DNA of 64,000 nt, taken from contig JAWXAY010000100.1 in NCBI GenBank assembly GCA_034439715.1, forward strand, positions 55,353 to 119,352, read 5' to 3'. The translations under genes and the position numbers were made by a program. This document shows positions 1,017 through 26,496 of the stretch, in pieces (within the stretch, counting starts at the first letter, position 1; every line of letters starts with the position of its first letter). The DNA is from Pseudomonadota bacterium. Its GTDB lineage: Bacteria; Bdellovibrionota; Bdellovibrionia; Bdellovibrionales; SG-bin7. Under the pieces are notes generated by a model. That model was given only the letters and a program-made list of their open reading frames with translations. It did not search any database and was not told the origin of the DNA.

Positions 1017-2171
1017 ATGTATCCCATTTATATGGACAACCATGCGACCACGAGAGTTGATGAACGCGTTTTAGCAGTAATGTTGCCGTATTTTTGTGAA
1101 CACTATGGGAACTCCTCACTAACTATGCATCGCTATGCTCGGCGAGCGGAGAGTGCGGTAGATGGCGCTCGTCTTCAAGTAGCAAAAATCATAGGTGCGA
1201 CCAAAGACGAAATATTTTTTACTGGCACTGCAACCGAATCCATAAATCTGGCCATCAAAGGGGCTGCGTTTGCAAACAAAAATCATGGCGAGCACATCAT
1301 TACCTCGATGGCCGAACACAAGGCCGTACTAAATTCTTGCCAAAGCTTGGAGAAGCAGGGTTTTAAGGTGACTTACCTCAAGCCTGAAAGCGATGGGAGG
1401 ATTCTGCCCGAAAAAGTTTTTACAGCAATCACCGATAGAACCATATTAGTAACTTTGATGCTCGCGAACAATGAAAACGGTGTCATCCATGATGTAAAAA
1501 CAATTGGCAAGGAACTTTCGAAAAGAAAAATTTTATTTCACATCGACGCCGTCCAAGGAGTAGGAAAAATTCCTTTTGATGTGACATCTAGCCACTCCGA
1601 CTATGTATCCCTTTCTGCACACAAAATGTATGGCCCAAAGGGTGTTGCTGCCCTCTTTATTCGTAAAAATCCGAACACATTAATGGAGCCACTAACTGAT
1701 GGTGGTGGCCAAGAGCAGGGAATACGATCTGGAACTCACAATGTTTCAGGAATCGTAGGGTTTGGGGAGGCCTGTCGTATTGCGCAGGAAGAAATGCCTG
1801 AGGAGAGTCAGCGACTGCTTAATCTTCGCGAATCGTTGCATCAAAAAATAATTAGTCAGCTCGACGGTGTTTTTCTTAATGGCCCCCTGGAAAACCGGTT
1901 ACCTGGAAATCTCAATATGAGTTTTGCCGAAATTGAAGGAGATGTACTTCTCGCATCTCTCATAGAAATCGCAGTGTCCTCAGGTTCCGCTTGCTCTGCA
2001 GGTAATCAAAACAGCTCTCACGTTTTACGTGCCCAAGGCGTTCCTGACGATTTAGCTAAGGCCGCCATCCGCTTCGGGTTAGGTCGATATAACACTCAGG
2101 AGGAAGTCGACTTTGCCGCACAACTTGTTATACGCCATGTAAAGCGACTGCGCCAATTTTCTGCTTTCTAA
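1017..2171 (+). CDS. iscS: cysteine desulfurase (IscS/NifS group I)
   Basis: YMDNHATT start, PLP Lys in SAHKMYGPKG, catalytic Cys in SSGSACS. Confidence 0.92.
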   Translation: MYPIYMDNHATTRVDERVLAVMLPYFCEHYGNSSLTMHRYARRAESAVDGARLQVAKIIGATKDEIFFTGTATESINLAIKGAAFANKNHGEHIITSMAEHKAVLNSCQSLEKQGFKVTYLKPESDGRILPEKVFTAITDRTILVTLMLANNENGVIHDVKTIGKELSKRKILFHIDAVQGVGKIPFDVTSSHSDYVSLSAHKMYGPKGVAALFIRKNPNTLMEPLTDGGGQEQGIRSGTHNVSGIVGFGEACRIAQEEMPEESQRLLNLRESLHQKIISQLDGVFLNGPLENRLPGNLNMSFAEIEGDVLLASLIEIAVSSGSACSAGNQNSSHVLRAQGVPDDLAKAAIRFGLGRYNTQEEVDFAAQLVIRHVKRLRQFSAF

Positions 2172-2995
2172 AATTTTTCGATAACTGAGGCGTGTAGTTT
2201 CTTATTCTCACCGGACAGATTATGCACAAAATAAACGTCTTCCCCAACTTGATAAGCTTTTGTCTGCACGTAACATTCATCAAATAGAAAGTAAGCTTTT
2301 TTAAGTTCGGCATTTATTTTCTTTAGGGGATGACTAAGGCCTTTAAGAAGAGAATCTCCTTTGTCAGTATTTGCTTGAACTAGATTTTCGCGTCCTCTTC
2401 CAACGATACCCATGAGCTCTACGAAACACCATTGATCAGCAACTTCGCAAAGGTGGCGGTGAATTGTAAGTGAAATATTCCCCTCAGCTAAGATCTCCCC
2501 CGACGTTTCAATTTCGCTGAGAAGCACAGGAACAACCCTATCTGGTGTGGTATCATCTATTTCATCTGGTCGAAGTTTTTTTAGTAAGGACCCCTCAACT
2601 TTGCCAGTAACCCCGGCTAAAGAGGCATCTAAGTGCGCAACTTTAAGTGCAAATAAAAGTATTTTAACTTTAGCAATTTGTTTTTCCGCAGTTCTGAACT
2701 CTATATTAAAATCTAAGAGTGTTCCATTTTTGCGAAGGGTGGCACCCTTAACTTCGACAGTAAAACCATCATCGTCAAAAAAATCAACTCGGTCTTGATA
2801 AGCTATATCGATACCAACGATTACCCAACTCAGCCCGTGATTTTTAACTCCATCCCGAAAGCTAACAAAGTGTGTTCGCAGCCACCCCCACATAACATTA
2901 AAACTGACAGATAATAAGGAGCGCGATTGAAATTGATGGGGAGTGAATTGGCTCGTATCAAATGGGTAGTCGACAGTATGTGAACGCGGCATCAA
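2168..2995 (-). CDS. putative double hot-dog fold (thioesterase-like) protein
   Basis: WVIVGIDIAY..FTVEV and LKKINAELKK..F strand patterns resemble acyl-thioesterase hot-dog domains; last gene of the ACAD-MoaD operon. Confidence 0.5.
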   Translation of the reverse strand: MMPRSHTVDYPFDTSQFTPHQFQSRSLLSVSFNVMWGWLRTHFVSFRDGVKNHGLSWVIVGIDIAYQDRVDFFDDDGFTVEVKGATLRKNGTLLDFNIEFRTAEKQIAKVKILLFALKVAHLDASLAGVTGKVEGSLLKKLRPDEIDDTTPDRVVPVLLSEIETSGEILAEGNISLTIHRHLCEVADQWCFVELMGIVGRGRENLVQANTDKGDSLLKGLSHPLKKINAELKKAYFLFDECYVQTKAYQVGEDVYFVHNLSGENKKLHASVIEKF

Positions 2996-2998
2996 CGA

Positions 2999-3268
2999 TT
3001 ATCCTCCTGCAATCGCTGTTAAAATTTCTAAACAGTCCGTTTCTTGCAATTGGCGCTTCATATCTTCAGGTAGAAGTTGCTCACCATTTAAAAATAACTG
3101 GTGGGCACCTCTCACGCTGCCATGGGTATCATAGAGAATAGATTTTAACGTCGGATAAGTTGTCGTCAAAGAATCGAGAGCCGCCGTGATGGTACGAGCT
3201 TCACCAATGATATGCTCCTTTTTATAACCTACAAATCGCAACAGAGTTCCTGAAAGTTTAACTATCAT
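2999..3268 (-). CDS. MoaD/ThiS family ubiquitin-like sulfur carrier
   Basis: 89 aa; LFLNGE and C-terminal AIAGG di-glycine. Confidence 0.9.
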   Translation of the reverse strand: MIVKLSGTLLRFVGYKKEHIIGEARTITAALDSLTTTYPTLKSILYDTHGSVRGAHQLFLNGEQLLPEDMKRQLQETDCLEILTAIAGG

Positions 3269-4410
3269 GGTGCCTTCTTCCTGTGTTGTCTTTGTTCAAA
3301 ATTATGTGTGGCCCACACGCCAAGATCGACTTCAATGGTATCTTGGGCTCCAACGGTAGGGATTAGACCCGTAAAATCTCGTTGAAATCTTCCATACTGT
3401 TGGTCCTGAATATAACCTTTGCCCCCTGCCAATCGAAATACCTGTAGCATGAATTGGTTAGCTTGATCGACGATATGATATTTCGTAGCAGTCAAGAATG
3501 GATCCCAAAGGGGTTCAATATTTTTGTCTCTTAATTTTTCTAATGCACGATAAAGCATGGCCCGGCTTGTCTCGATAGAAACATACATCTTTCCTAAGAG
3601 AGATTGGACATTTTGCATGACTGTTAGGGGCCGCTCATATCGGGTGGTGCCTATCAGATTATTCATCAGGTCGTCGTAGATCGACTGCATTTTTCCAACC
3701 AGGCCACAAATGACAGAGATTCTTCTTAGGTTTAAAAAACGCTGAACGTGGCTGAGTCCATCAGCTGGTGTTAATATTCGGTTGGCATCCAGTACTATGT
3801 TATTGAACTTGAGCCCCGCCAGACCTACAGAGCGAAGGCCACTCATTGTGGTGAGTGGAATAATTTCAAGCCCGTCATCATCGCGTTCAATAAGAAAGGT
3901 AAGAAGATCATTTTTTTCGTCTCGTACGTAAACCATAAAGAGATCGGCCTGCATTCCGCCCATGACATAAAATTTTTCGCCATTTATAATATATTTATCG
4001 CCTTTTTTTTCGCACGAGGAGCGAAAAGAGAAAGGATCAGCCCCCTCTGTATAAGCAAATGAAGCTAAGCACTTGCCATGAACTGCAGGACGCAAGTAGC
4101 GCTCAATCATCCAAGGCGTCGCTGTTTCTTGAATTGTATTGGCAACAGCTGGAAAAAGTGAACTGAGCATAACAAAGGAAAAATCGGTGCTGTGTTTTCC
4201 TAAATCTTCTAAGAGTAGCCCATAACTCAATGGATCCAGGCCACCTCCACCAATATTTTTAGAAAGTGAAGCAGAAAATAGACCTAACTCTGCGGACTCG
4301 ATAAATATATCTTTGGGGATGGGAGTTGCCAACTGATCTCGGGTAATAACATGGCGATTAACTTGTTCATCAAGAAAAGATCTCATCTTGGGATTTAGAG
4401 CACTTTTCAT
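3265..4410 (-). CDS. acyl-CoA dehydrogenase family flavoprotein (atypical)
   Basis: SFAYTEG, YIINGEKFYV, GLRS and LAGGKGY..RFQRD motifs; start uncertain (TTG at 4452 possible). Confidence 0.85.
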   Translation of the reverse strand: MKSALNPKMRSFLDEQVNRHVITRDQLATPIPKDIFIESAELGLFSASLSKNIGGGGLDPLSYGLLLEDLGKHSTDFSFVMLSSLFPAVANTIQETATPWMIERYLRPAVHGKCLASFAYTEGADPFSFRSSCEKKGDKYIINGEKFYVMGGMQADLFMVYVRDEKNDLLTFLIERDDDGLEIIPLTTMSGLRSVGLAGLKFNNIVLDANRILTPADGLSHVQRFLNLRRISVICGLVGKMQSIYDDLMNNLIGTTRYERPLTVMQNVQSLLGKMYVSIETSRAMLYRALEKLRDKNIEPLWDPFLTATKYHIVDQANQFMLQVFRLAGGKGYIQDQQYGRFQRDFTGLIPTVGAQDTIEVDLGVWATHNFEQRQHRKKAP

Positions 4411-4517
4411 ATGAAAATTTATCGGGAAAGAATCAGGGGAACGGTAGGCCAAATCTGATGCCCAACATCAATGGGAAAACTGTAAAGTTTTGGTTACTTA
4501 TGACGATAGAACGGAGT

Positions 4518-5678
4518 ATGCCCAGACCTTTATCCAGCACAGCGTTAAAACTCTCAAAAGAAGAAGTGCGTCGTTACAGTCGACATCTCTTAATGCCCCA
4601 GGTGAAAATGGAAGGTCAGCTCAAACTAAAAGCGGCACGTGTATTGATTATCGGCACGGGCGGTTTGGGTGCGCCGTTAGGGTTATATTTAGCTGCGGCT
4701 GGAATAGGAATGCTAGGCTTGGTTGATTTCGATGTGGTCGATGCTAGTAACCTCCAGCGACAAGTTATATTTACCAATGATGATATCGGTCGCCCCAAGG
4801 TAGAGGCGGCACGTGACCACCTTTCAAAACTAAATCATTACATAGAAATCATGTCGTATAATGAACTCTTCACAAGTCAAAATGCCCTCCGTATTATGCA
4901 GGAATACGATGTGATCGTAGATGCGACTGATAATTTTCCGACAAGATACTTAATTAACGATGCCTGTGTGTTTACGCAGAAGCCCTATGTTTATGGGAGT
5001 ATTTTTCAACATGAAGGACAGGTCACGGTTTTTGCGAAAAGTGATGGTCCCTGTTACCGCTGTTTGTTTCCGGAACCACCGCCGCCGGGAATGGTACCCA
5101 GTTGTGCCGAGGGGGGAGTGCTGGGAGTTTTGCCAGGAATCATTGGTTCCCTTCAAGCCAATGAAGCTCTCAATTTAATTTTAAATATTGGTGAGGGCCT
5201 AGCGGGCAGGCTTGTGAGGTTTGATGCTATCAATGTTCGTTTCAAAGAACTAAAAATTAAAAAAAACCCAAACTGTCCTGTCTGCGGAGCGAATCCTTCG
5301 ATTACCAAGCTTATCGACTATGAAGAGTTTTGTGGATTGTCCGATAAAAATGCCACTCACGAAGGCCAAGAAATTGAACCTATCCTACTAAAGCAATGGT
5401 TAGACCGAAACGAACAGGTGTCCCTAGTCGATGTAAGGGAACCCGGCGAGTACGAAATTTGTAATTTGGGCGGACAACTAATACCTTTATATGAAATACC
5501 ATTGCGGATGCACGAATTTGATTCGAGCCTGCGAATTGTTATTTTATGTAGTGGTGGCCAGCGGTCAGCCCGTGCCGTAGAGTTATTACGAAAATCTGGT
5601 TTTAAAAATGTTTGGAATTTAAAAGGTGGTTTGTTTGCGTGGAGTGACCAGATTGACCCGACTTTTGTGAAATATTGA
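4518..5678 (+). CDS. moeB: MoeB/MoeZ sulfur-carrier adenylyltransferase with C-terminal rhodanese domain
   Basis: RYSRH, GTGGLG, SNLQRQ, CYRC/CPVC Zn sites, PSCAEGG, rhodanese CSGGQRS; start uncertain (4458-4518). Confidence 0.92.
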   Translation: MPRPLSSTALKLSKEEVRRYSRHLLMPQVKMEGQLKLKAARVLIIGTGGLGAPLGLYLAAAGIGMLGLVDFDVVDASNLQRQVIFTNDDIGRPKVEAARDHLSKLNHYIEIMSYNELFTSQNALRIMQEYDVIVDATDNFPTRYLINDACVFTQKPYVYGSIFQHEGQVTVFAKSDGPCYRCLFPEPPPPGMVPSCAEGGVLGVLPGIIGSLQANEALNLILNIGEGLAGRLVRFDAINVRFKELKIKKNPNCPVCGANPSITKLIDYEEFCGLSDKNATHEGQEIEPILLKQWLDRNEQVSLVDVREPGEYEICNLGGQLIPLYEIPLRMHEFDSSLRIVILCSGGQRSARAVELLRKSGFKNVWNLKGGLFAWSDQIDPTFVKY

Positions 5679-5683
5679 TTTTA

Positions 5684-6364
5684 TTAGGGCTTACCCGAAA
5701 GCACTCTTGTGCCTAAAGGCTTTGACGAACCACCCTTTGGTTCACGAGTAATTAAGATCGAAGAAAGTTTTTTAGGATCTGATATTGGTAATTCCTCCAA
5801 TTTGAAAACTTTTAATTCTGGAGAGTCGACAGAAAAACTCATTAGATTTAGATTTACGGAGCCCTGTTGAACCATCCATAGCTGATATTCCGAGGTGTCG
5901 GCGTTGGATTTAAGGCCCGATACCAACAGGCTCGCTGTCTTAAGGCCGGGTACCCAAAAAAATTTGCCATTAGCTTTAGATTCAGGGTCAGAAGTTATCA
6001 ACGGTATAATTTTGAGTTTTGAAGAATCCAGAATTGCGGTGAGTTCGCTAAACTTTTTACTTAAAGTCTCGAGATTTTCAATTTTGACTTGATCTTGAGC
6101 GGATTTCTCACTCGCCGCTGCTATCTGTTGTTCCATCCCCTTGGATTTTTGCCCAATTTGATCCAACTCGGACTGCAGTTGGTCAACTTCACTTTTTCTA
6201 TTTAAAAGTTCTGAGCTTAAGTTGCCCAGCTGATTCCTTAACTCTCGAGCGCCCGTCACATAGTGTAAAGCAACAAACAGACACACTATAGCCAAAAAGT
6301 ATCCTATAAAAATGGGACTCATAAGGCCTTTTAGTTTTTCAAACTTCTTTACTATTTCGTTCAT
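5684..6364 (-). CDS. anti-sigma-K (RskA-like) domain membrane protein
   Basis: TM helix, coiled coil, then EYQLW and ITREPKGGSSKP motifs of the RskA C-terminal domain. Confidence 0.7.
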   Translation of the reverse strand: MNEIVKKFEKLKGLMSPIFIGYFLAIVCLFVALHYVTGARELRNQLGNLSSELLNRKSEVDQLQSELDQIGQKSKGMEQQIAAASEKSAQDQVKIENLETLSKKFSELTAILDSSKLKIIPLITSDPESKANGKFFWVPGLKTASLLVSGLKSNADTSEYQLWMVQQGSVNLNLMSFSVDSPELKVFKLEELPISDPKKLSSILITREPKGGSSKPLGTRVLSGKP

Positions 6365-20030: not shown

Positions 20031-21590
20031 TTGGATCAAGAAATATTTGAGTGGCTGCTTTTATTAGGTCGATGGCTTCATATCACTGTCGCCATGGCGT
20101 GGATTGGCGCTTCATTCTTTTTCATGTGGCTCGATCGTACGCTTCAAAATAATGAACTCTGGATGGTCCACGGCGGCGGATTTTACCAAGTTAAAAAACA
20201 TCTCATGGGTCCGACAAGGGTTCCCAATCATTTGCACTGGTTTAAATGGGAGTCGTATTGGACCTGGCTCAGCGGACTTTTTTTAGTCATTCTGGTTTTT
20301 TATACCGGTAATGGTACTTTTCTTTTAGATTCGTCGGTTTCACAGGTCACTTACTGGCAGGCCGTTGGCATAAGTGTGGCATCGATGCTGGTATCCTGGC
20401 TGTATTATGATTTTTTATGGGAAAGTAAACTTGCTAAAAATAAACCTATAGTTGGGCACTTGCTAACTTTGTTGTGGTTTGTGGGTATGTCTTACTTTTT
20501 ATGTCATACTCTCAGCGGTAGAGCTGCGTATATTCATGTTGGTGGCATGCTTGGTACCTGGATGACCGCTAATGTGTTTTTGCGAATCATTCCTCGTCAA
20601 CTTAAAATGGTTGAGGCCGCAAAGCTTGGCGAGACGGTAAATCAAGAGTGGAGCAAGAACGCTAAGAATCGATCGACTCACAATACCTATTTTACCTTAC
20701 CTGTGATTTTCATAATGCTCAGCAATCACTTTCCGATGACCTATGGTCATAACTTCAACTGGCTCATTCTATTAGTTATCAGCGCGGCTGGTGCTGCGAT
20801 TCGTGAGTATTTTGTAGTTCGTCTGCAAAACCCTATTCGTGCGAAAATATTCGCTGCCGTCGGGGTCGTGTTGATTTTGGGAGTTATGTTTTTTACCAAG
20901 CAGAAGACACTTGTTCCCATAGAAACATATTCGGCTAAAGTTTCTGTAGAAAATCTTGGTCCAACGGCAAATGTTAAAGGTGTTGTAAAGTTTGTAGGAC
21001 CAGTACCGGTGGGCGAAAAGTTGCAGTTACCATTGGAGTGTAGGCAGGGCCGCGAGGGCGAGACTTTTTCAAATGAAGTTGTGGTTAATAACGGTAGGAT
21101 AAAAAATGTACTGATAAGAATCACCAAGGGGCTTGAAGGCAAAGTTTTTGGCGATGTGCCCGAGACTCCCGTACTCTTGGATCAAATAGATTGTCTCTAT
21201 GAACCAAGGGTGATTGGTGTTCGAGTTGGCCAAAAAATAGAAATTATTAATAGTGATTCTTTATTTCACAATGTGCGAGCGCTTACCAAAAACAATGAAG
21301 AGTTTAATATTTCAATGCCACAAAAAAACGATCGCTTTACTAAAGTATTTATGAAACCCGAAGTATTTTTACAAACAAAGTGTAGTGTACATCCCTGGAT
21401 GAGTGCCTATATTGCCGTTATAGAACACCCCTTTTTTAGCGTTACTAATGATACTGGCGAGTTTTTGATTAAGGATTTACCTTATGGGAACTATGCACTT
21501 GAAATTTGGCACGAAGTGTTCGGCGTTCAGACAAAAGAGATATCAGTAACTAAAGATCAGGATATTGAGTTTACCTTCAAAAGGGAGTGA
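20031..21590 (+). CDS. puuD: PuuD-type membrane urate hydroxylase N-domain fused to a cupredoxin/carboxypeptidase-regulatory-like domain
   Basis: RWLH...WIG.SF, WMVHGGGFY, LHWFKWESYWTWLSG, RSTHNTY, MLSNHFP; C-terminal DQ..C.Y.P, HNV, CSVHPWM, WHE; no CxxCH. Confidence 0.85.
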   Translation: MDQEIFEWLLLLGRWLHITVAMAWIGASFFFMWLDRTLQNNELWMVHGGGFYQVKKHLMGPTRVPNHLHWFKWESYWTWLSGLFLVILVFYTGNGTFLLDSSVSQVTYWQAVGISVASMLVSWLYYDFLWESKLAKNKPIVGHLLTLLWFVGMSYFLCHTLSGRAAYIHVGGMLGTWMTANVFLRIIPRQLKMVEAAKLGETVNQEWSKNAKNRSTHNTYFTLPVIFIMLSNHFPMTYGHNFNWLILLVISAAGAAIREYFVVRLQNPIRAKIFAAVGVVLILGVMFFTKQKTLVPIETYSAKVSVENLGPTANVKGVVKFVGPVPVGEKLQLPLECRQGREGETFSNEVVVNNGRIKNVLIRITKGLEGKVFGDVPETPVLLDQIDCLYEPRVIGVRVGQKIEIINSDSLFHNVRALTKNNEEFNISMPQKNDRFTKVFMKPEVFLQTKCSVHPWMSAYIAVIEHPFFSVTNDTGEFLIKDLPYGNYALEIWHEVFGVQTKEISVTKDQDIEFTFKRE

Positions 21591-21591
21591 C

Positions 21592-21915
21592 ATGATAAGC
21601 ACACATATTTTAGACACAAGTAAGGGCGTGCCAGCCGCAGGCATACCCGTTAAGTTAAGGTTTAGAAATGGGGACTCGTGGGCGGAGTTAGCGGTTGGAA
21701 AAACCAACTCTGACGGGCGATGCTCCTTTGAGTGCGAAATTGCTATGGGCATTTATAAAATTGTTTTTGAGGTGGAAGAATATCTCAAAAAACAAACTAA
21801 AGATTATTTTTACTCAAAAGTACCAGTCGTATTTAAGGTAACAGATGTTGGCCGCAAGTATCACGTGCCACTACTCTTGAATCCGTTTGGCTACTCCACT
21901 TATAGAGGTAGCTGA
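21592..21915 (+). CDS. uraH: 5-hydroxyisourate hydrolase (transthyretin-like)
   Basis: ISTHILD, TNSDGR, YHVPLLL and C-terminal YRGS. Confidence 0.95.
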   Translation: MISTHILDTSKGVPAAGIPVKLRFRNGDSWAELAVGKTNSDGRCSFECEIAMGIYKIVFEVEEYLKKQTKDYFYSKVPVVFKVTDVGRKYHVPLLLNPFGYSTYRGS

Positions 21916-21954: not shown

Positions 21955-24900
21955 GTGACAGATGCGTTATTGAATTATTTGAAGCGCGAAAGCCGTCCAG
22001 TTGTCGGCGTATCTGAGTTGATGGAAGTCGGAAAAGGAGGAGGACTTGAGAATAAAGAATCGTTAAAATTTTTGTGTGAATTATACGACCAGCTAAAAGA
22101 GAATCTTAATCAAGTTTTAAACCAGAGAAAAACTGATCGTCACTTTATCGATCAGCGAACCCGCGCTTGTTATGAGCTCAATAAAAACCTTGGTATCGAT
22201 TTTATATCTCCTCAATACGAAACAATTATTGGCCATGAGGATGCAAATGGCCGAATCGTTATCGGCCCCAAAAATGATTTTTATGCAAAAAGTGGTGGCG
22301 GTAAACCTATTGCGCAATTGCCCGATTTTTTACAGGGTCACCACGTGACTTTATTTGGTCCGCCAGATGATGCCAAACTTTCTATAAATGCCATGAATGC
22401 CTTTTATAGAAAAACCAAGGACGAACCTGAAATCGTATCGGAACTACTTTCAACCCACTTGAGTAATCCCAAGTGGGGTGCCGACGATGAAGATTCTAAG
22501 ACGCCACTTAGAGCTGATTTAGTTGCGGCCGGTGAAAATCTTACCAGGTGTTTTGCTGGCGATCTTGAGTATACCGATCCCAAAACACAAAAAAAATATG
22601 CGCTAGAAAAGGGACGACTCGCTCTCCCTATTAAGCGATTCCCGGGTTTAGCTTTACCCTGTACTTTTCTGCTATATCGAGACAATCCGCTGCCGCTTCA
22701 CCTTTACGATTTTGCTCTTCATCTTTTTGAGAATTGGCATAACGAACAAGCGTTATCGTTTTATGTGCCTAAGCTCGAAAATGAAGAAGAGGCCCGATAT
22801 ATTTACTTGATGTGCGACACTGCAGAGGCGATGATTCAAAAACTCCACCCCGAGTATAAAAAGGGCGCCATCAGGCTGTTTGTCGTTCTAGAAAATCCTC
22901 GGGCGATTTTTCGTGTCAATGAAATCATGGATGCACTTTACCCTTATTTTGCTGGCGCCTCTCTAGGCTGGCACGATTATTTAAGCTCCGCCGCTCGTTT
23001 GTTTAAGAATGATGCTAACTATCGGATTCCTGTTAAAGCTGATCCAGATATAGTAATTAAATATATTAAGGCTTCACATGATTTGCTGGCACAGGTTGTT
23101 GGTTCGCGTGGTGGAGTCAAAATTGGTGGAATGTACGGCGTTCTGCCAATGGATAGTGATCTGTTTAGTCCCTCATACCAAATTGCCATAAAGGGTTTTA
23201 TAAAAGATGTCGTTACCGAGCTTAAAAGAAATCTCTCAGGTTTTTGGGTGGCACATCCCGATTTTATTCGGTGTGCACTGGCCATAGTTGAAAGCTGGAA
23301 ATTTTATCAGTCAGGTGATAAATCAAAACTAGATACCTTGGTCACCTGCCTTTTAGATAAAAAATACCATAAGGAAATTAGGGAGTTTATCCATGCCCGC
23401 GATTTGGCGGGACTCGACGTCAATGACCCGCTCTATGCAAGGTCATTGATTGTCGCCGATATTAAAGAATCGACGTTTATTGCCAATAATCATCCCGATG
23501 AAATTCGTTACAATGTGTTTCAGTCTCTGCAGTATTTGACGGATTGGTTAAGTGGCAATGGTTGTGTGGCGTTACCAGCCGAAATAGAGGGTGTGCCGGT
23601 ACGAGTAATGGATGATTTGGCTACGGCCGAACGCTCCCGGTGGGAGGTCTGGCATGAGCTGCACCACGGTCGCTTTAATCTAGAGGAATTTTTGAAAATT
23701 GCGCATGAAGAGATGATATTTATACGCAAAGATCTTTCGAACTCAAAAAAAATCGTACAGGTTAAGTGGAATGAGCGGACTGAAAAATGGTACCCAGTGG
23801 CCATGAGGCTAATGATTGAACTAATGACTAGCCCGGCGCCAGTTGAATTTGCGACTGAGCTTTTAATGTCATTTACAGTGGACTCGATTAGGCAAGAAGC
23901 AGATCCTCTTTTGGCATTGAGTAAGATAGATCCCGGCAAACTTGCTTTGAATTCATATATAGAGCGCTTTAATTACTATTTTTTAATTTGCGGCAATCTT
24001 GTTTTTGCAAAGACGATGGCCCAAAATATATCGGTTGATTTAGCGCTGGCAGAAAAACTTATAAACAACTTTACTTTGGATGAAGTTAAGGCCGCCGCGT
24101 ATTTTCATGGTGACATTGGCGAGAATAAGAAAACACTTGATGAAATGGCATCAAATGAGCAGGCGCTGGTGCTGAATGAGGACAATAAAATTAAGTCCGA
24201 GTTAGCCGATCTTGGTTTTAAATACCTGCAAAAATTTGGAGTAAAGTTTTTAATTTCTGCAAAAAACAAATCTGGAAAAGAAATAGTGTCAGCGCTTAGG
24301 ACGCGCCTCGAAAATACGGCTTCACAAGAATTGATCAATGCCAAGTCTGCGCTTTGGGAAATTAGCCTTAAGCGATTAAAAACTCAAGCGGAGCAAAGCC
24401 TTCATCAGCAAATCGAGAGATTGCGAGCTATGCACAATATTGGAGATGCCGCAGTCAGTGTTTCATTGCCGGGGGGAAGTGGGCAATTGCTTTGTTTTGG
24501 TGGGGCGACCGAGCAAACCTGGTTTCAATATGCGTCTTTAAGTAAAACGTTGTCCAGTTGTTTTGCCGTCGAATACTTTCACAATAAAAATATTTCTCTC
24601 GATACTCCCGTGGATTCTTTGTTAGAAAAAACAGAATCTGCATTTCGCATAAAGTCTGCTGAGGTTACGCTCCGTCACCTTATGAATCACACAGCGCTAA
24701 ACATGCATTACGTCAACGGAGTGCCAACAGCAGAAAAAATGCCAAATGTACGTGAGTTGCTTGACCCGATTGTCGTGACCAATGTGCCGGGCACGAGATT
24801 TCAGTATTCTGGCGGCGGATTTCTAGTGCTCCAACATCTTATCGAAGCTTTAGAAGGAAAAACTATTGTTGAGATTACCAAAACGTTTTTTGACAAGTTA

Positions 24901-26496
24901 GATTTAAAAAATTTAAGCTTTGCACCAGTGCCTGCTCCTAATATGGAAAAAATGTTCCCCGCTTTTGCGGCGGGCGTCCTAGGTACTGCCACTGACATGT
25001 CGCGATTTTTAGGGTGCCTCACTGGCGCCTATAAATCGTTAGACGGCGCGGGCCCCATTTCTCATAATACTGCGATAGAGATGTTACACGGTGCAGACGT
25101 TGGAAGTTTTAAGTTCATAGGAGCAAAAATGGGGCTCGGTGTTTTTATAGCCGAAGCTGGCCCTAATCGCCTCATGTTACATCAGGGCGCGAATGATGGG
25201 TTCCGATCGGTTTTTGTTCACTGCTTTGATGGCCCCGATAGCGGCACTGGGTTTGTGGTGCTGTGCACTGGTGATTTTAATGGGGTCTTGTTTATTTCTG
25301 AAGTAGCGCAATTAATATTTAAGGAACTTAACCTAAAAGGTGTCGACACAAATAAATTTCTGAATAAATTTGAACTCTTAAATATCCCGCCTGAGGAAGT
25401 AGTCAATCGAGCCTATAAAAATTTACTGTTTGATGCCTTTGAGCCAGATTTGCCGGAAGTGATCAAACAAAAGGGCCCGCTTGACCCCCTCGCTTCAAAA
25501 AATCTCGCCGTAGGCGGTAAAATCGTAGAGACCAGCAATCAAGGCTTTGCCCGAGCTGAAAATCTTTTATCTCCGCACTTGCCGACATTTGATTCTGAGC
25601 TTTATGGCCGTCAAGGAAAAATAATGGATAGCTGGGAATCTGTACGTCATAACCCTAATTCAAACGACTATCTCATTTTTGAGTTAAAAAAACCGTCAAC
25701 AATTTCTCAGGTTTCTCTATCCACAAAATATCACCTCGGGAATCACGCTGAGGCAGTGGAAATCGAAGGTCTCGACAGTCAAGGGCAGTGGCAGAGAATT
25801 ATCGCGAAAACTGAGTTAAATGGACATGCCATTAAATTTCTCCTATCGCTGGCTAATAAATCGATTTTTACGACTATTAAAGTTTCGATGTTTCCTGACG
25901 GAGGATTAACCCGATTGGGTCTCTACAAAGATGAGCTCCCGGAACAGCCAAAAAACCAGATTTTTAGTGAAGGCATTCCTCACACTAATAAGCCGCTCAC
26001 ACCTCAGTTTAAGGGAGCACCACGTTTTTCGTCTGGCATCGAAATAGATATTGCCAGCCAGGCTTACGGCGGAAAAATAATTAGTGTGTCGAATCAGCAT
26101 TATGGTCCGGCTTCTCAAATTATTTCACCCTATCCGCCAATCAACATGTTCGATGGTTTTGAATCTGCGCGCAGTCGAGAAGCAGATCATTTCGAAGATG
26201 TGATTATTGAACTGGGTCGACCCGCAAAAATTAGCCGTATCGAAATAGATTTTACCTACTTTAAAAACAATAACCCTCGCGAATTAAGCATAGAGGGATT
26301 ATCTAAAAATGGCTGGGTTGTTTTAGTGACAAAAACAAACGTCAAAGCGTATGCCGGTAATGTGGTAGAGTTTAAGCCAAAAAATACAGAGGAGATCAAA
26401 CAAGTGAAAGTCGTGGTTTTTCCAGATGGCGGAATAAATCGGGTCAAAGTTTTTACGAGACCAGAGAAGAGACCTGAGAAGGGACCAGCAACATGA
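21955..26496 (+). CDS. fusion: malate synthase / OHCU decarboxylase / beta-lactamase-fold serine hydrolase / allantoicase
   Basis: MS: ADDEDS, YVPKLE, LENP, GWHDY, WVAHP, GNGCV, MDDLATAE. OHCU: HGDIG, EQ, Y..KFG..F, RLEN, KRL. Hydrolase: SLSK, YSGGG, HQG. Allantoicase: two repeats with DSWES/DGFES and PDGG..R. Confidence 0.88.
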   Translation: MTDALLNYLKRESRPVVGVSELMEVGKGGGLENKESLKFLCELYDQLKENLNQVLNQRKTDRHFIDQRTRACYELNKNLGIDFISPQYETIIGHEDANGRIVIGPKNDFYAKSGGGKPIAQLPDFLQGHHVTLFGPPDDAKLSINAMNAFYRKTKDEPEIVSELLSTHLSNPKWGADDEDSKTPLRADLVAAGENLTRCFAGDLEYTDPKTQKKYALEKGRLALPIKRFPGLALPCTFLLYRDNPLPLHLYDFALHLFENWHNEQALSFYVPKLENEEEARYIYLMCDTAEAMIQKLHPEYKKGAIRLFVVLENPRAIFRVNEIMDALYPYFAGASLGWHDYLSSAARLFKNDANYRIPVKADPDIVIKYIKASHDLLAQVVGSRGGVKIGGMYGVLPMDSDLFSPSYQIAIKGFIKDVVTELKRNLSGFWVAHPDFIRCALAIVESWKFYQSGDKSKLDTLVTCLLDKKYHKEIREFIHARDLAGLDVNDPLYARSLIVADIKESTFIANNHPDEIRYNVFQSLQYLTDWLSGNGCVALPAEIEGVPVRVMDDLATAERSRWEVWHELHHGRFNLEEFLKIAHEEMIFIRKDLSNSKKIVQVKWNERTEKWYPVAMRLMIELMTSPAPVEFATELLMSFTVDSIRQEADPLLALSKIDPGKLALNSYIERFNYYFLICGNLVFAKTMAQNISVDLALAEKLINNFTLDEVKAAAYFHGDIGENKKTLDEMASNEQALVLNEDNKIKSELADLGFKYLQKFGVKFLISAKNKSGKEIVSALRTRLENTASQELINAKSALWEISLKRLKTQAEQSLHQQIERLRAMHNIGDAAVSVSLPGGSGQLLCFGGATEQTWFQYASLSKTLSSCFAVEYFHNKNISLDTPVDSLLEKTESAFRIKSAEVTLRHLMNHTALNMHYVNGVPTAEKMPNVRELLDPIVVTNVPGTRFQYSGGGFLVLQHLIEALEGKTIVEITKTFFDKLDLKNLSFAPVPAPNMEKMFPAFAAGVLGTATDMSRFLGCLTGAYKSLDGAGPISHNTAIEMLHGADVGSFKFIGAKMGLGVFIAEAGPNRLMLHQGANDGFRSVFVHCFDGPDSGTGFVVLCTGDFNGVLFISEVAQLIFKELNLKGVDTNKFLNKFELLNIPPEEVVNRAYKNLLFDAFEPDLPEVIKQKGPLDPLASKNLAVGGKIVETSNQGFARAENLLSPHLPTFDSELYGRQGKIMDSWESVRHNPNSNDYLIFELKKPSTISQVSLSTKYHLGNHAEAVEIEGLDSQGQWQRIIAKTELNGHAIKFLLSLANKSIFTTIKVSMFPDGGLTRLGLYKDELPEQPKNQIFSEGIPHTNKPLTPQFKGAPRFSSGIEIDIASQAYGGKIISVSNQHYGPASQIISPYPPINMFDGFESARSREADHFEDVIIELGRPAKISRIEIDFTYFKNNNPRELSIEGLSKNGWVVLVTKTNVKAYAGNVVEFKPKNTEEIKQVKVVVFPDGGINRVKVFTRPEKRPEKGPAT

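What the first reader, a model, noticed from the sequence alone, without database searches (positions are those of the whole stretch)
1017..5678. Complete sulfur relay around an acyl-CoA dehydrogenase and hot-dog protein: candidate thio-metabolite pathway
Seen: IscS(+), then hot-dog <- MoaD/ThiS(GG) <- ACAD on the minus strand, divergent from MoeZ (E1 + rhodanese). The carrier overlaps the ACAD stop, and no moaE, thiG, cysM, iscU or mnmA is in the window. Known: MoeZ plus a carrier thiocarboxylate supplies sulfur in PDTC (pdt) and thioquinolobactin (qbs) biosynthesis, and an ACAD and a thioesterase occur in tropodithietic acid synthesis. Inference: this is a dedicated route putting sulfur onto an acyl-thioester, giving an unknown thioacid, thiol or thioether.
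Basis: partly seen in the sequence, partly recalled or inferred. Interest (0 to 1): 0.72.

Follow-up and report, generated by a model that had tools for sequence, protein, structure and literature searches.

The report
Sulfur-insertion cassette with unstudied enzymes
Five intact neighbouring genes, three of which recur side by side in many unrelated bacteria, likely form a self-contained route that puts a sulfur atom onto a small fatty-acid-like molecule, using a sulfur-carrier protein and two enzymes whose job is predicted but untested.

Summary
All five genes are real and intact. The genome (95.7% complete) shows no Moco, ThiG or JAMM genes. It has one sulfur carrier, this one, and three other desulfurases for housekeeping, so the relay looks dedicated.

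What is conserved is a three-gene core, not five genes. In 80 GTDB loci picked on the double hot-dog protein, the carrier is present in 78, the ACAD-like protein in 69 and both in 68. MoeZ is present in 18 and a desulfurase in 2.

The ACAD-like protein has lost the catalytic glutamate (0 of 86 at the MCAD site; Arg in 83 of 86 at the IVD site). Eight Burkholderia-type loci replace it with a malate-synthase-like domain lacking the motif aspartate. Larger versions add a fatty acyl-AMP ligase, ACP, an ordinary dehydrogenase and a methyltransferase-like domain.

Best reading (inferred): the carrier thiocarboxylate adds to an enoyl-thioester and the hot-dog protein releases a thiol. A thioacid route is the main rival. 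Ten paper searches found no description. This scan noted the same core earlier on other DNA (e1-3920177). Verdict: new variant of a known kind; product unknown.

The parts
1017..2171 (+). IscS-type cysteine desulfurase, a fourth copy in the genome; likely sulfur source for the cassette (accessory gene)
   Evidence: Pfam PF00266, best NCBIfam IscS subfamily but under cut-off; PLP Lys and catalytic Cys motifs present; 47% identical to the iscA-linked copy on C56
2168..2992 (-). Double hot-dog protein (274 aa) of a family without a Pfam model; motif R179-x-x-C-E183-x-A-D186-Q-W188, R201, H257, E272; core gene
   Evidence: 232 representatives at E<=0.001; conservation; fold; motif DNA at 2391-2458
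2999..3268 (-). Ubiquitin-fold sulfur carrier (ThiS/MoaD family, 89 aa), free C-terminal Gly-Gly with no cap; core gene
   Evidence: PF02597; the only carrier in the genome (the second hit lies inside a 740-aa RelA/SpoT-like ORF); present in 78 of 80 loci
3265..4410 (-). ACAD-fold flavoprotein (381 aa) without catalytic Glu (Val353 at the MCAD site, Arg229-Arg230 at the IVD site); core gene in most loci. Longest ORF extends to 4452
   Evidence: Pfam ACAD N/M/C; alignments to the genome's own ACADs and to PDB entries; column counts; 69 of 80 loci
4411..4517 (.). 107-nt divergent intergenic region, presumed shared promoter region (inferred)
   Evidence: Sequence; the sigma-70 scan listed no site inside it, and 12 sites overall against 9.9 expected
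4518..5678 (+). MoeZ: E1-like adenylyltransferase plus rhodanese, the carrier-activating enzyme (accessory gene). Longest ORF starts at 4458
   Evidence: PF00899 + PF00581; NCBIfam MoeZ match begins at residue 21, i.e. ATG 4518; motifs; only full-length copy in the genome; 18 of 80 loci

Best explanation
The five genes likely form a dedicated sulfur-insertion unit in which IscS and MoeZ would load sulfur onto the carrier's Gly-Gly end as a thiocarboxylate, the glutamate-less ACAD-fold flavoprotein is predicted to bind an alpha,beta-unsaturated acyl-CoA or acyl-ACP so that the thiocarboxylate adds at C3, and the double hot-dog protein would cut the carrier-S-acyl thioester to free a 3-mercaptoacyl product. 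Shown here: gene content, intact motifs, the conserved core, loss of the catalytic Glu, and absence of other carrier clients. From established chemistry: desulfurase + MoeZ + GG-carrier gives a thiocarboxylate. Inferred: substrate, site of addition, and the roles of both enzymes. In this minimal version the enoyl-thioester would come from host metabolism. In the larger versions a fatty acyl-AMP ligase, ACP and ordinary ACAD would supply it, and a methyltransferase-like domain would S-methylate the thiol. The flavin might also oxidise the thiol to an enethiol, which needs no alpha-proton base. I put the broad claim (dedicated sulfur transfer to a small acyl compound) at about 0.8 and this specific chemistry at about 0.4.
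For: - Carrier in 78 of 80 hot-dog loci, 72 within 150 bp; 77 of 78 end in GG.
- Pairwise identities of the three core proteins track each other over 62 loci (Mantel rho 0.66-0.76).
- In 5 of 5 other genomes checked there are 3-5 ThiS-family matches; in four the cassette carrier is listed as a weaker extra match, and in G393 I did not map it.
- No Moco, ThiG, JAMM or TtuA client in G000.
- Closest folds act on protein-bound thioesters: acyl-ACP thioesterases and LnmK. Conserved acidic residues lie just before the second hot-dog helix.
- A thioester-linked adduct needs no JAMM protease, which fits its absence.
- 44 of 80 loci have an AMP-ligase, 30 an ACP, 34 a second ACAD that keeps FEGT, and 33 a methyltransferase(-like) unit. 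The ligase upstream of the carrier in L016 is FAAL-like.
- The replacement partner in 8 loci, a malate-synthase-like domain, reads LMEG where solved malate synthase 3cux reads LMED, a parallel loss of a carboxylate.
- Precedent for a carrier plus a cleaving enzyme yielding a thiol: chuangxinmycin CxnE/CxnF and thienodolin ThnL/ThnF (passages).
Against: - No activity, product or expression data.
- The window version has no enoyl-forming enzyme or ligase.
- 11 of 80 loci lack the ACAD-like gene and 2 lack the carrier (L028; L042 at a contig edge).
- A lower-scoring Glu-less ACAD in L159 sits beside what I read from sequence as a ligase and a methyltransferase (not scanned), with no carrier or hot-dog gene in 12 kb. 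Glu loss is therefore not tied to sulfur.
- Glu-less ACADs can be heteroatom oxygenases (ChmG).
- The hot-dog protein lacks the DxNxHVNN motif of acyl-ACP thioesterases, and the profile comparison was not significant (E 0.53).
- Loci were chosen on the hot-dog motif, and 27 of the 76 tree rows form one close actinomycete clade, so counts overstate independence.
- The fused methyltransferase-like tail has a degenerate SAM motif and no NCBIfam hit at 1e-15.
- Some loci look decayed: split ACAD in L035 and L070.
Confidence: 0.4

Rival explanations
1. Thioacid route: the hot-dog protein does the job of the type III CoA-transferase PtmU4, moving sulfur from the carrier to the carbonyl of an acyl-thioester to give R-COSH. 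The flavoprotein then oxidises the sulfur or a methyltransferase caps it as an S-methyl thioester.
For: The hot-dog/carrier pair is the most constant unit (78 of 80). LnmK shows acyl transfer in this fold. Acyl-activating ligases are in 44 of 80 loci. Thioacid formation, flavin S-hydroxylation and an S-methyl shunt product are all known in sulfenicin and thioplatensimycin.
Against: It does not explain why a Glu-keeping ACAD that would make an enoyl-ACP lies between the genes in 34 loci. The sulfenicin S-hydroxylase is a group B monooxygenase, not an ACAD.
Confidence: 0.27
2. Oxygenase route: the Glu-less ACAD is a ChmG-like heteroatom oxygenase or oxidase that turns the carrier's sulfur electrophilic, so that it bonds to a nucleophilic carbon. 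The hot-dog protein then releases the thiol.
For: Ligase + ACP + Glu-keeping ACAD + Glu-less ACAD mirrors chmGHIJ, where the Glu-less member is an N-oxygenase. New conserved polar residues R24, D217, R229, R230, D303, Q356.
Against: No flavin reductase recurs among annotated neighbours (one in L012). The 8 malate-synthase-type loci have no flavoprotein partner of this kind.
Confidence: 0.13
3. The carrier is a ubiquitin-like protein modifier or serves housekeeping sulfur needs (tRNA, cofactor, cysteine), and the neighbouring enzymes are its targets or bystanders.
For: The carrier's best NCBIfam and PDB matches are archaeal SAMP1, under cut-off. MoeZ's E1 part matches defence E1-E2 models. IscS scores against DndA/SspA models.
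Against: No JAMM, MoaE, MoaC, MoeA or ThiG. The two PP-loop hits read as TilS and TtcA, not TtuA. PALP enzymes are unlinked. The hot-dog family is missing from 389 other genomes of the class, unlike a housekeeping gene.
Confidence: 0.1
4. A catabolic or detoxifying module running the other way: removing sulfur from an organosulfur acyl-CoA (as a desulfinase-type ACAD does) and capturing it on the carrier.
For: The ACAD scores weakly against the 3-sulfinopropanoyl-CoA desulfinase model (E 3.7e-23, far under cut-off). Amino-acid permeases flank several loci.
Against: MoeZ and the desulfurase spend ATP and cysteine to charge the carrier, which points to synthesis. MFS transporters, FAAL/ACP and PKS/NRPS genes flank many loci.
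Confidence: 0.05

Closest known systems
Deubiquitinase-like sulfurtransferase systems: chuangxinmycin CxnE/CxnF/CxnC and thienodolin ThnL/ThnF/ThnM/ThnE (PMC12087186 and 10.64898/2025.12.11.692455, passages)
   Same: Pathway-specific carrier plus MoeZ plus one enzyme that hands over sulfur and frees the carrier, giving a thiol
   Different: There the enzyme is deubiquitinase-like and the substrate an alpha-keto acid from tryptophan. Here it is a double hot-dog protein, no JAMM gene is found, and partners point to acyl-thioesters
Thioacid cassette PtmA3/PtmU4 (thioplatensimycin, PDTC, thioquinolobactin; PMC6006322, passages) and sulfenicin TaaHIJ (10.1101/2024.10.16.618611, parts 1-2 of 6)
   Same: Carrier thiocarboxylate made by MoeZ and a desulfurase donates sulfur to an acyl-CoA
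   Different: Defined by a type III CoA-transferase beside a ligase, absent here. The ptm and taa pathways borrow the carrier from elsewhere in the genome, whereas this one is uncapped and encoded between the enzymes
Acyl-ACP thioesterases (PDB 2own, 4gak, 2ess) and LnmK (6x7l, 4hzo)
   Same: Double hot-dog fold over the whole length, Z 20-22
   Different: 7-10% identity; motif RxxCExADQW in place of DxNxHVNN; no Pfam hit; tied to a sulfur carrier
ChmG/ChmH pair of chalkophomycin N-hydroxypyrrole synthesis (PMC10849742, part 1 of 7 and passages)
   Same: Two ACAD-fold proteins with ligase and ACP, one keeping and one lacking the catalytic Glu, as in the large actinomycete versions
   Different: No sulfur in that pathway (0 occurrences of 'sulfur' in the text); substrate is prolyl-ACP; Met replaces Glu there, Arg and Gln/Ala/Val here
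CysO-CysM-Mec+-MoeZ cysteine synthesis (recalled; also named in e1-3920177)
   Same: Thiocarboxylate adds to an activated alkene held by a partner enzyme
   Different: Needs a PLP enzyme and a JAMM protease after S-to-N shift; neither is linked here
Paulomycin paulic acid genes (PMC4802897, passages)
   Same: MoeZ-like gene, acyl-CoA synthase and ACP in a cluster making a small sulfur-bearing acyl unit
   Different: Isothiocyanate product; the text has 0 occurrences of 'sulfur carrier' or 'thioesterase'; sequences not compared

Membership tests
Carrier-thiocarboxylate sulfur relay (general kind) | Ubiquitin-fold carrier with C-terminal Gly-Gly | tested here: met
   PF02597, ends TAIAGG; G88 and G89 invariant in 76 rows
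Carrier-thiocarboxylate sulfur relay (general kind) | E1-like activator with rhodanese Cys, and a sulfur source | tested here: met
   ThiF + rhodanese, CSGGQRS; desulfurase SAHK and SGSAC
Carrier-thiocarboxylate sulfur relay (general kind) | Thiocarboxylate actually formed and consumed | not testable with these tools
   Needs intact-protein MS
Thioacid cassette (PtmA3/PtmU4, pdt, qbs) | Type III CoA-transferase within two genes of an acyl-CoA ligase | tested here: not met
   None among the five genes or flanks; the genome's single PF02515 match is on contig C52; none among 45 recurring families and 83 other neighbours scanned (163 were listed)
Deubiquitinase-like sulfurtransferase system; CysO/Mec+ | JAMM/MPN protease-like partner | tested here: not met
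   PF14464 0 matches in G000; none in scanned neighbours. That CxnF belongs to this Pfam family is recalled
Molybdopterin synthesis | MoaE, MoaC, MoeA in the genome | tested here: not met
   0 matches each, controls 11 of 14; genome 95.7% complete
Thiamine thiazole synthesis | ThiG | tested here: not met
   One 21-bit partial match under cut-off
Canonical acyl-CoA dehydrogenase | ACAD fold with FAD-binding motifs | tested here: met
   Three Pfam domains; K146, R257, K310, G329 invariant in 86 rows; Atlas model pTM 0.90
Canonical acyl-CoA dehydrogenase | Catalytic Glu at the MCAD or IVD/LCAD site | tested here: not met
   Column 353: Q39 A35 V6 G5 S1 of 86; column 229: R in 83, E in 1 of 86; mapping
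Acyl-ACP thioesterase | Double hot-dog fold | tested here: met
   Z 22.3, rmsd 3.0, 240 aligned; Foldseek E 4.7e-13
Acyl-ACP thioesterase | Pfam PF01643/PF20791 match and DxNxHVNN motif | tested here: not met
   No Pfam hit; G000 0 matches to PF20791; motif seen in 13 real members but not here, hhalign E 0.53
Ubiquitin-like conjugation or defence (SAMP, CBASS E1-E2, Bil) | E2 and/or JAMM partner | tested here: not met
   Only the E1 part matches PADLOC E1-E2 models; no hit for carrier, hot-dog or ACAD; no JAMM
DNA phosphorothioation (Dnd/Ssp) | dndBCDE or sspBCD beside the desulfurase | tested here: inconclusive
   IscS scores on DndA/SspA models but the flanks scanned show no such genes; not searched genome-wide
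Tropodithietic acid (tdaDE) | Orthology to TdaD/TdaE and linkage to phenylacetate/tropone genes | not tested

The most novel reading that the evidence does not exclude
A fourth way to unload a sulfur carrier: a hot-dog sulfurtransferase works with interchangeable partner enzymes (an ACAD, or a malate synthase) that have each discarded their own catalytic carboxylate, because the carrier's C-terminal thiocarboxylate enters the active site in its place as nucleophile. That would be a portable thiol-installing module behind an undiscovered class of mercapto- and methylthio-acyl natural products across at least eight phyla.
Probability: 0.2. Interest if true: 0.85.

Novelty: new variant of a known kind. 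Interest (0 to 1): 0.58.

Why it matters
How sulfur enters natural products is known for few enzyme types. This cassette supplies a new candidate sulfurtransferase family (232 representatives at 50% clustering, no Pfam model) and a glutamate-less ACAD clade. It also gives a genome-mining handle for dozens of orphan clusters in actinomycetes, myxobacteria, Burkholderiaceae and pseudomonads. The window copy is useful because it carries its own MoeZ and desulfurase in a genome with no other carrier client found, so five genes should be enough for reconstitution.

Tried and rejected
- Complex prediction (hot-dog with carrier) was not available, and a second fold for the ACAD was not accepted. Binding and active-site geometry are untested.
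A near-identical protein motif covers 82 of 122 aligned members, so loci are missed.
- The metagenome scan with the ACAD returned 1 locus from 79 candidates, 100% identical to this genome: no new information.
- Profile mapping of hot-dog catalytic residues onto acyl-ACP thioesterases was not significant.
- Sequencing runs: no RNA holder listed among 10 runs.
- Promoter and terminator scan at chance level. No tRNA boundary. GC of the five genes (0.41-0.45) is like the genome's 0.42, so no sign of recent transfer.
- Sulfenicin, chalkophomycin, paulomycin and thiolactomycin were each considered as the known product and rejected on gene content described in the passages read; sequences were not compared.
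- Paper searches listed no description of this cassette. The library lacks most subscription journals and no supplements were read, so absence from print is not shown.
- The desulfinase structure paper was not held; its active-site residues are not used as evidence.
- The tree is the quick one; the careful search did not finish.

Full report
OBSERVATION. The five ORFs are present, intact and arranged as described: iscS 1017-2171(+), hot-dog 2168-2992(-), carrier 2999-3268(-), ACAD-like 3265-4410(-), moeZ 4518-5678(+). The three minus-strand genes are tightly packed (ATGA overlap; 6-nt gap), moeZ diverges across 107 nt, and iscS converges with overlapping stops. Family assignments are from Pfam and NCBIfam. 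The 274-aa protein has no family hit, but its model (pLDDT 86) matches acyl-ACP thioesterases and LnmK over the full length, and the Atlas agrees.

IS THE RELAY DEDICATED? G000 is 3.26 Mb and 95.7% complete. It shows no MoaE, MoaC, MoeA or JAMM and no ThiG over cut-off, with controls ringing in 8-14 of 14 genomes. Its PP-loop proteins read as TilS and TtcA (my reading of the sequences). The carrier and MoeZ are single copies. Three other desulfurases sit beside iscA, mnmA and suf genes, so the window IscS is a fourth. The hot-dog family was found in 1 of 390 genomes of the class, this one; 11 others gave only 19-21-bit partial hits. MoeZ was found at E<=1e-40 in 0 of 3 same-family genomes and 7 of 80 relatives. 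The cassette therefore looks acquired as a unit (inferred), though its GC is not unusual.

WHAT IS CONSERVED. A profile search gave 232 representatives with a conserved R-x-x-C-E-x-A-D-Q-W motif plus R201, H257 and E272. A DNA scan of GTDB for that motif gave 106 matches, all confirmed by the profile; 80 had flanks. Of these 80: carrier 78 (72 within 150 bp), ACAD-like 69, both 68, MoeZ 18, core plus MoeZ 11, desulfurase 2 (L045, L057). Short contigs lower these counts; selection on the hot-dog gene and a clade of 27 close actinomycete rows inflate independence. The loci span eight phyla in the quick tree, and the three proteins' identities correlate (Mantel rho 0.66-0.76, 62 loci). The window's hot-dog protein is sister to a Nitrospiraceae one (56%) and groups with Pseudomonas and Yersinia copies. 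The L057 desulfurase is SufS-type while the window's is IscS-type, suggesting separate recruitment. Reciprocal test with the ACAD profile: 6 of 401 genomes of L033's genus matched at E<=1e-90. One is the centre, and the five others all have carrier and hot-dog genes adjacent, but most duplicate contigs already found by the motif scan. In L004's family 3 of 208 matched: the centre, one lower-scoring hit with neither partner in 12 kb, and one cut by the contig end.

THE ENZYMES. The ACAD-like protein keeps FAD-binding motifs but not the catalytic base. The MCAD-site Glu (IYEG in solved structures) is Gln, Ala, Val, Gly or Ser in 86 of 86 rows. The IVD-site Glu is Arg in 83 of 86 and Glu in 1. 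Three architectures occur.
(a) Minimal: ACAD-like, carrier, hot-dog, with or without MoeZ, as in the window.
(b) Large, mainly actinomycete: fatty acyl-AMP ligase, carrier, hot-dog, an ordinary ACAD keeping FEGT (34 of 80 loci), ACP, and the Glu-less ACAD. In 30 loci the last carries a tail homologous to free-standing proteins that follow the hot-dog gene in three more loci, one of which Pfam calls a methyltransferase.
(c) Burkholderiaceae: the hot-dog domain fused to a malate-synthase-like domain with Gly for the motif Asp in 8 of 8 (that this Asp is the catalytic base is recalled), with no such ACAD.
The constant pair is carrier plus hot-dog; the partner varies but has lost its carboxylate in both forms.

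MECHANISM. Charging of the carrier follows from established MoeZ and desulfurase chemistry (described in PMC6006322). The rest is inference. Type (b) supplies an enoyl-ACP and a probable methyl cap. The closest folds of the hot-dog protein cut or transfer protein-bound thioesters. No JAMM is present, and none is needed if the carrier stays linked by a thioester. The simplest joint reading is conjugate addition of the thiocarboxylate at C3 on the Glu-less flavoprotein, then hot-dog release of a 3-mercaptoacyl group (0.4). A thioacid route is the main rival (0.27), then a ChmG-like oxygenase role (0.13). Against my reading: the window has no enoyl-forming gene; a Glu-less relative exists without a carrier; the thioesterase motif is not kept and residue mapping failed; and there are no expression or binding data.

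COMPARISON. It works like other carrier-based sulfur-insertion systems: the deubiquitinase-like ones and the thioacid cassettes. It is a member of neither, since JAMM and type III CoA-transferase were tested and not found. Moco and ThiG routes are excluded at the completeness given.

What I saw of each paper: sulfenicin preprint, parts 1-2 of 6; chalkophomycin, part 1 of 7 and passages; thiolactomycin preprint, abstract, outline and introduction; PMC6006322, PMC4802897, PMC12087186 and the P422 preprint, passages only; no supplements. Ten searches listed no account of this cassette, but subscription journals are mostly outside the library. I reached the core before opening it, and it is not independent evidence.

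VERDICT. Real, conserved and apparently uncharacterised: a new variant of the carrier-thiocarboxylate kind, with a new acceptor module. Interest 0.58; 0.85 if the carrier proves to stand in for the lost catalytic carboxylate of interchangeable partners (probability 0.2).

Noticed in passing
window 21955-26496 (+), after 20031-21590 and 21565-21915: One 1513-aa ORF fuses malate synthase, OHCU decarboxylase, a beta-lactamase-like domain and allantoicase repeats, directly after urate oxidase (Urate_ox_N) and HIU hydrolase genes. It looks like most of urate-to-malate catabolism in one chain.
   Followed up: partly
L019, L027, L048, L053, L061, L068, L077, L079: Burkholderiaceae-type version: malate-synthase-like/hot-dog fusion, carrier, small ACP-like gene, LuxE, FabI-like and FabG-like reductases, ligase, LuxC, MoeZ (L019 is cut after the carrier). 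LMEG replaces LMED in 8 of 8.
   Followed up: partly
L025, L080, L056: Cassette followed by a HemN/ChuW-like radical SAM gene; L056 also has a flavin halogenase-like gene and L080 a methyltransferase.
   Followed up: no
L159:4122-5636: A related Glu-less ACAD lacking the Arg pair, between an apparent transposase and an apparent AMP-ligase (read from sequence, not scanned), with no carrier or hot-dog gene in 12 kb.
   Followed up: partly
L001:18410-20864: The three-gene core is on the Streptomyces clavuligerus megaplasmid in 3 of 72,556 plasmid records, with no annotated feature listed there.
   Followed up: partly
P0124: Natural hot-dog/ACAD-like fusion of 682 aa among the representatives.
   Followed up: no
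window 5684-6364 (-): RskA-type anti-sigma protein with a coiled coil converges on moeZ, 5 nt after its stop; seems unrelated to the cassette.
   Followed up: no
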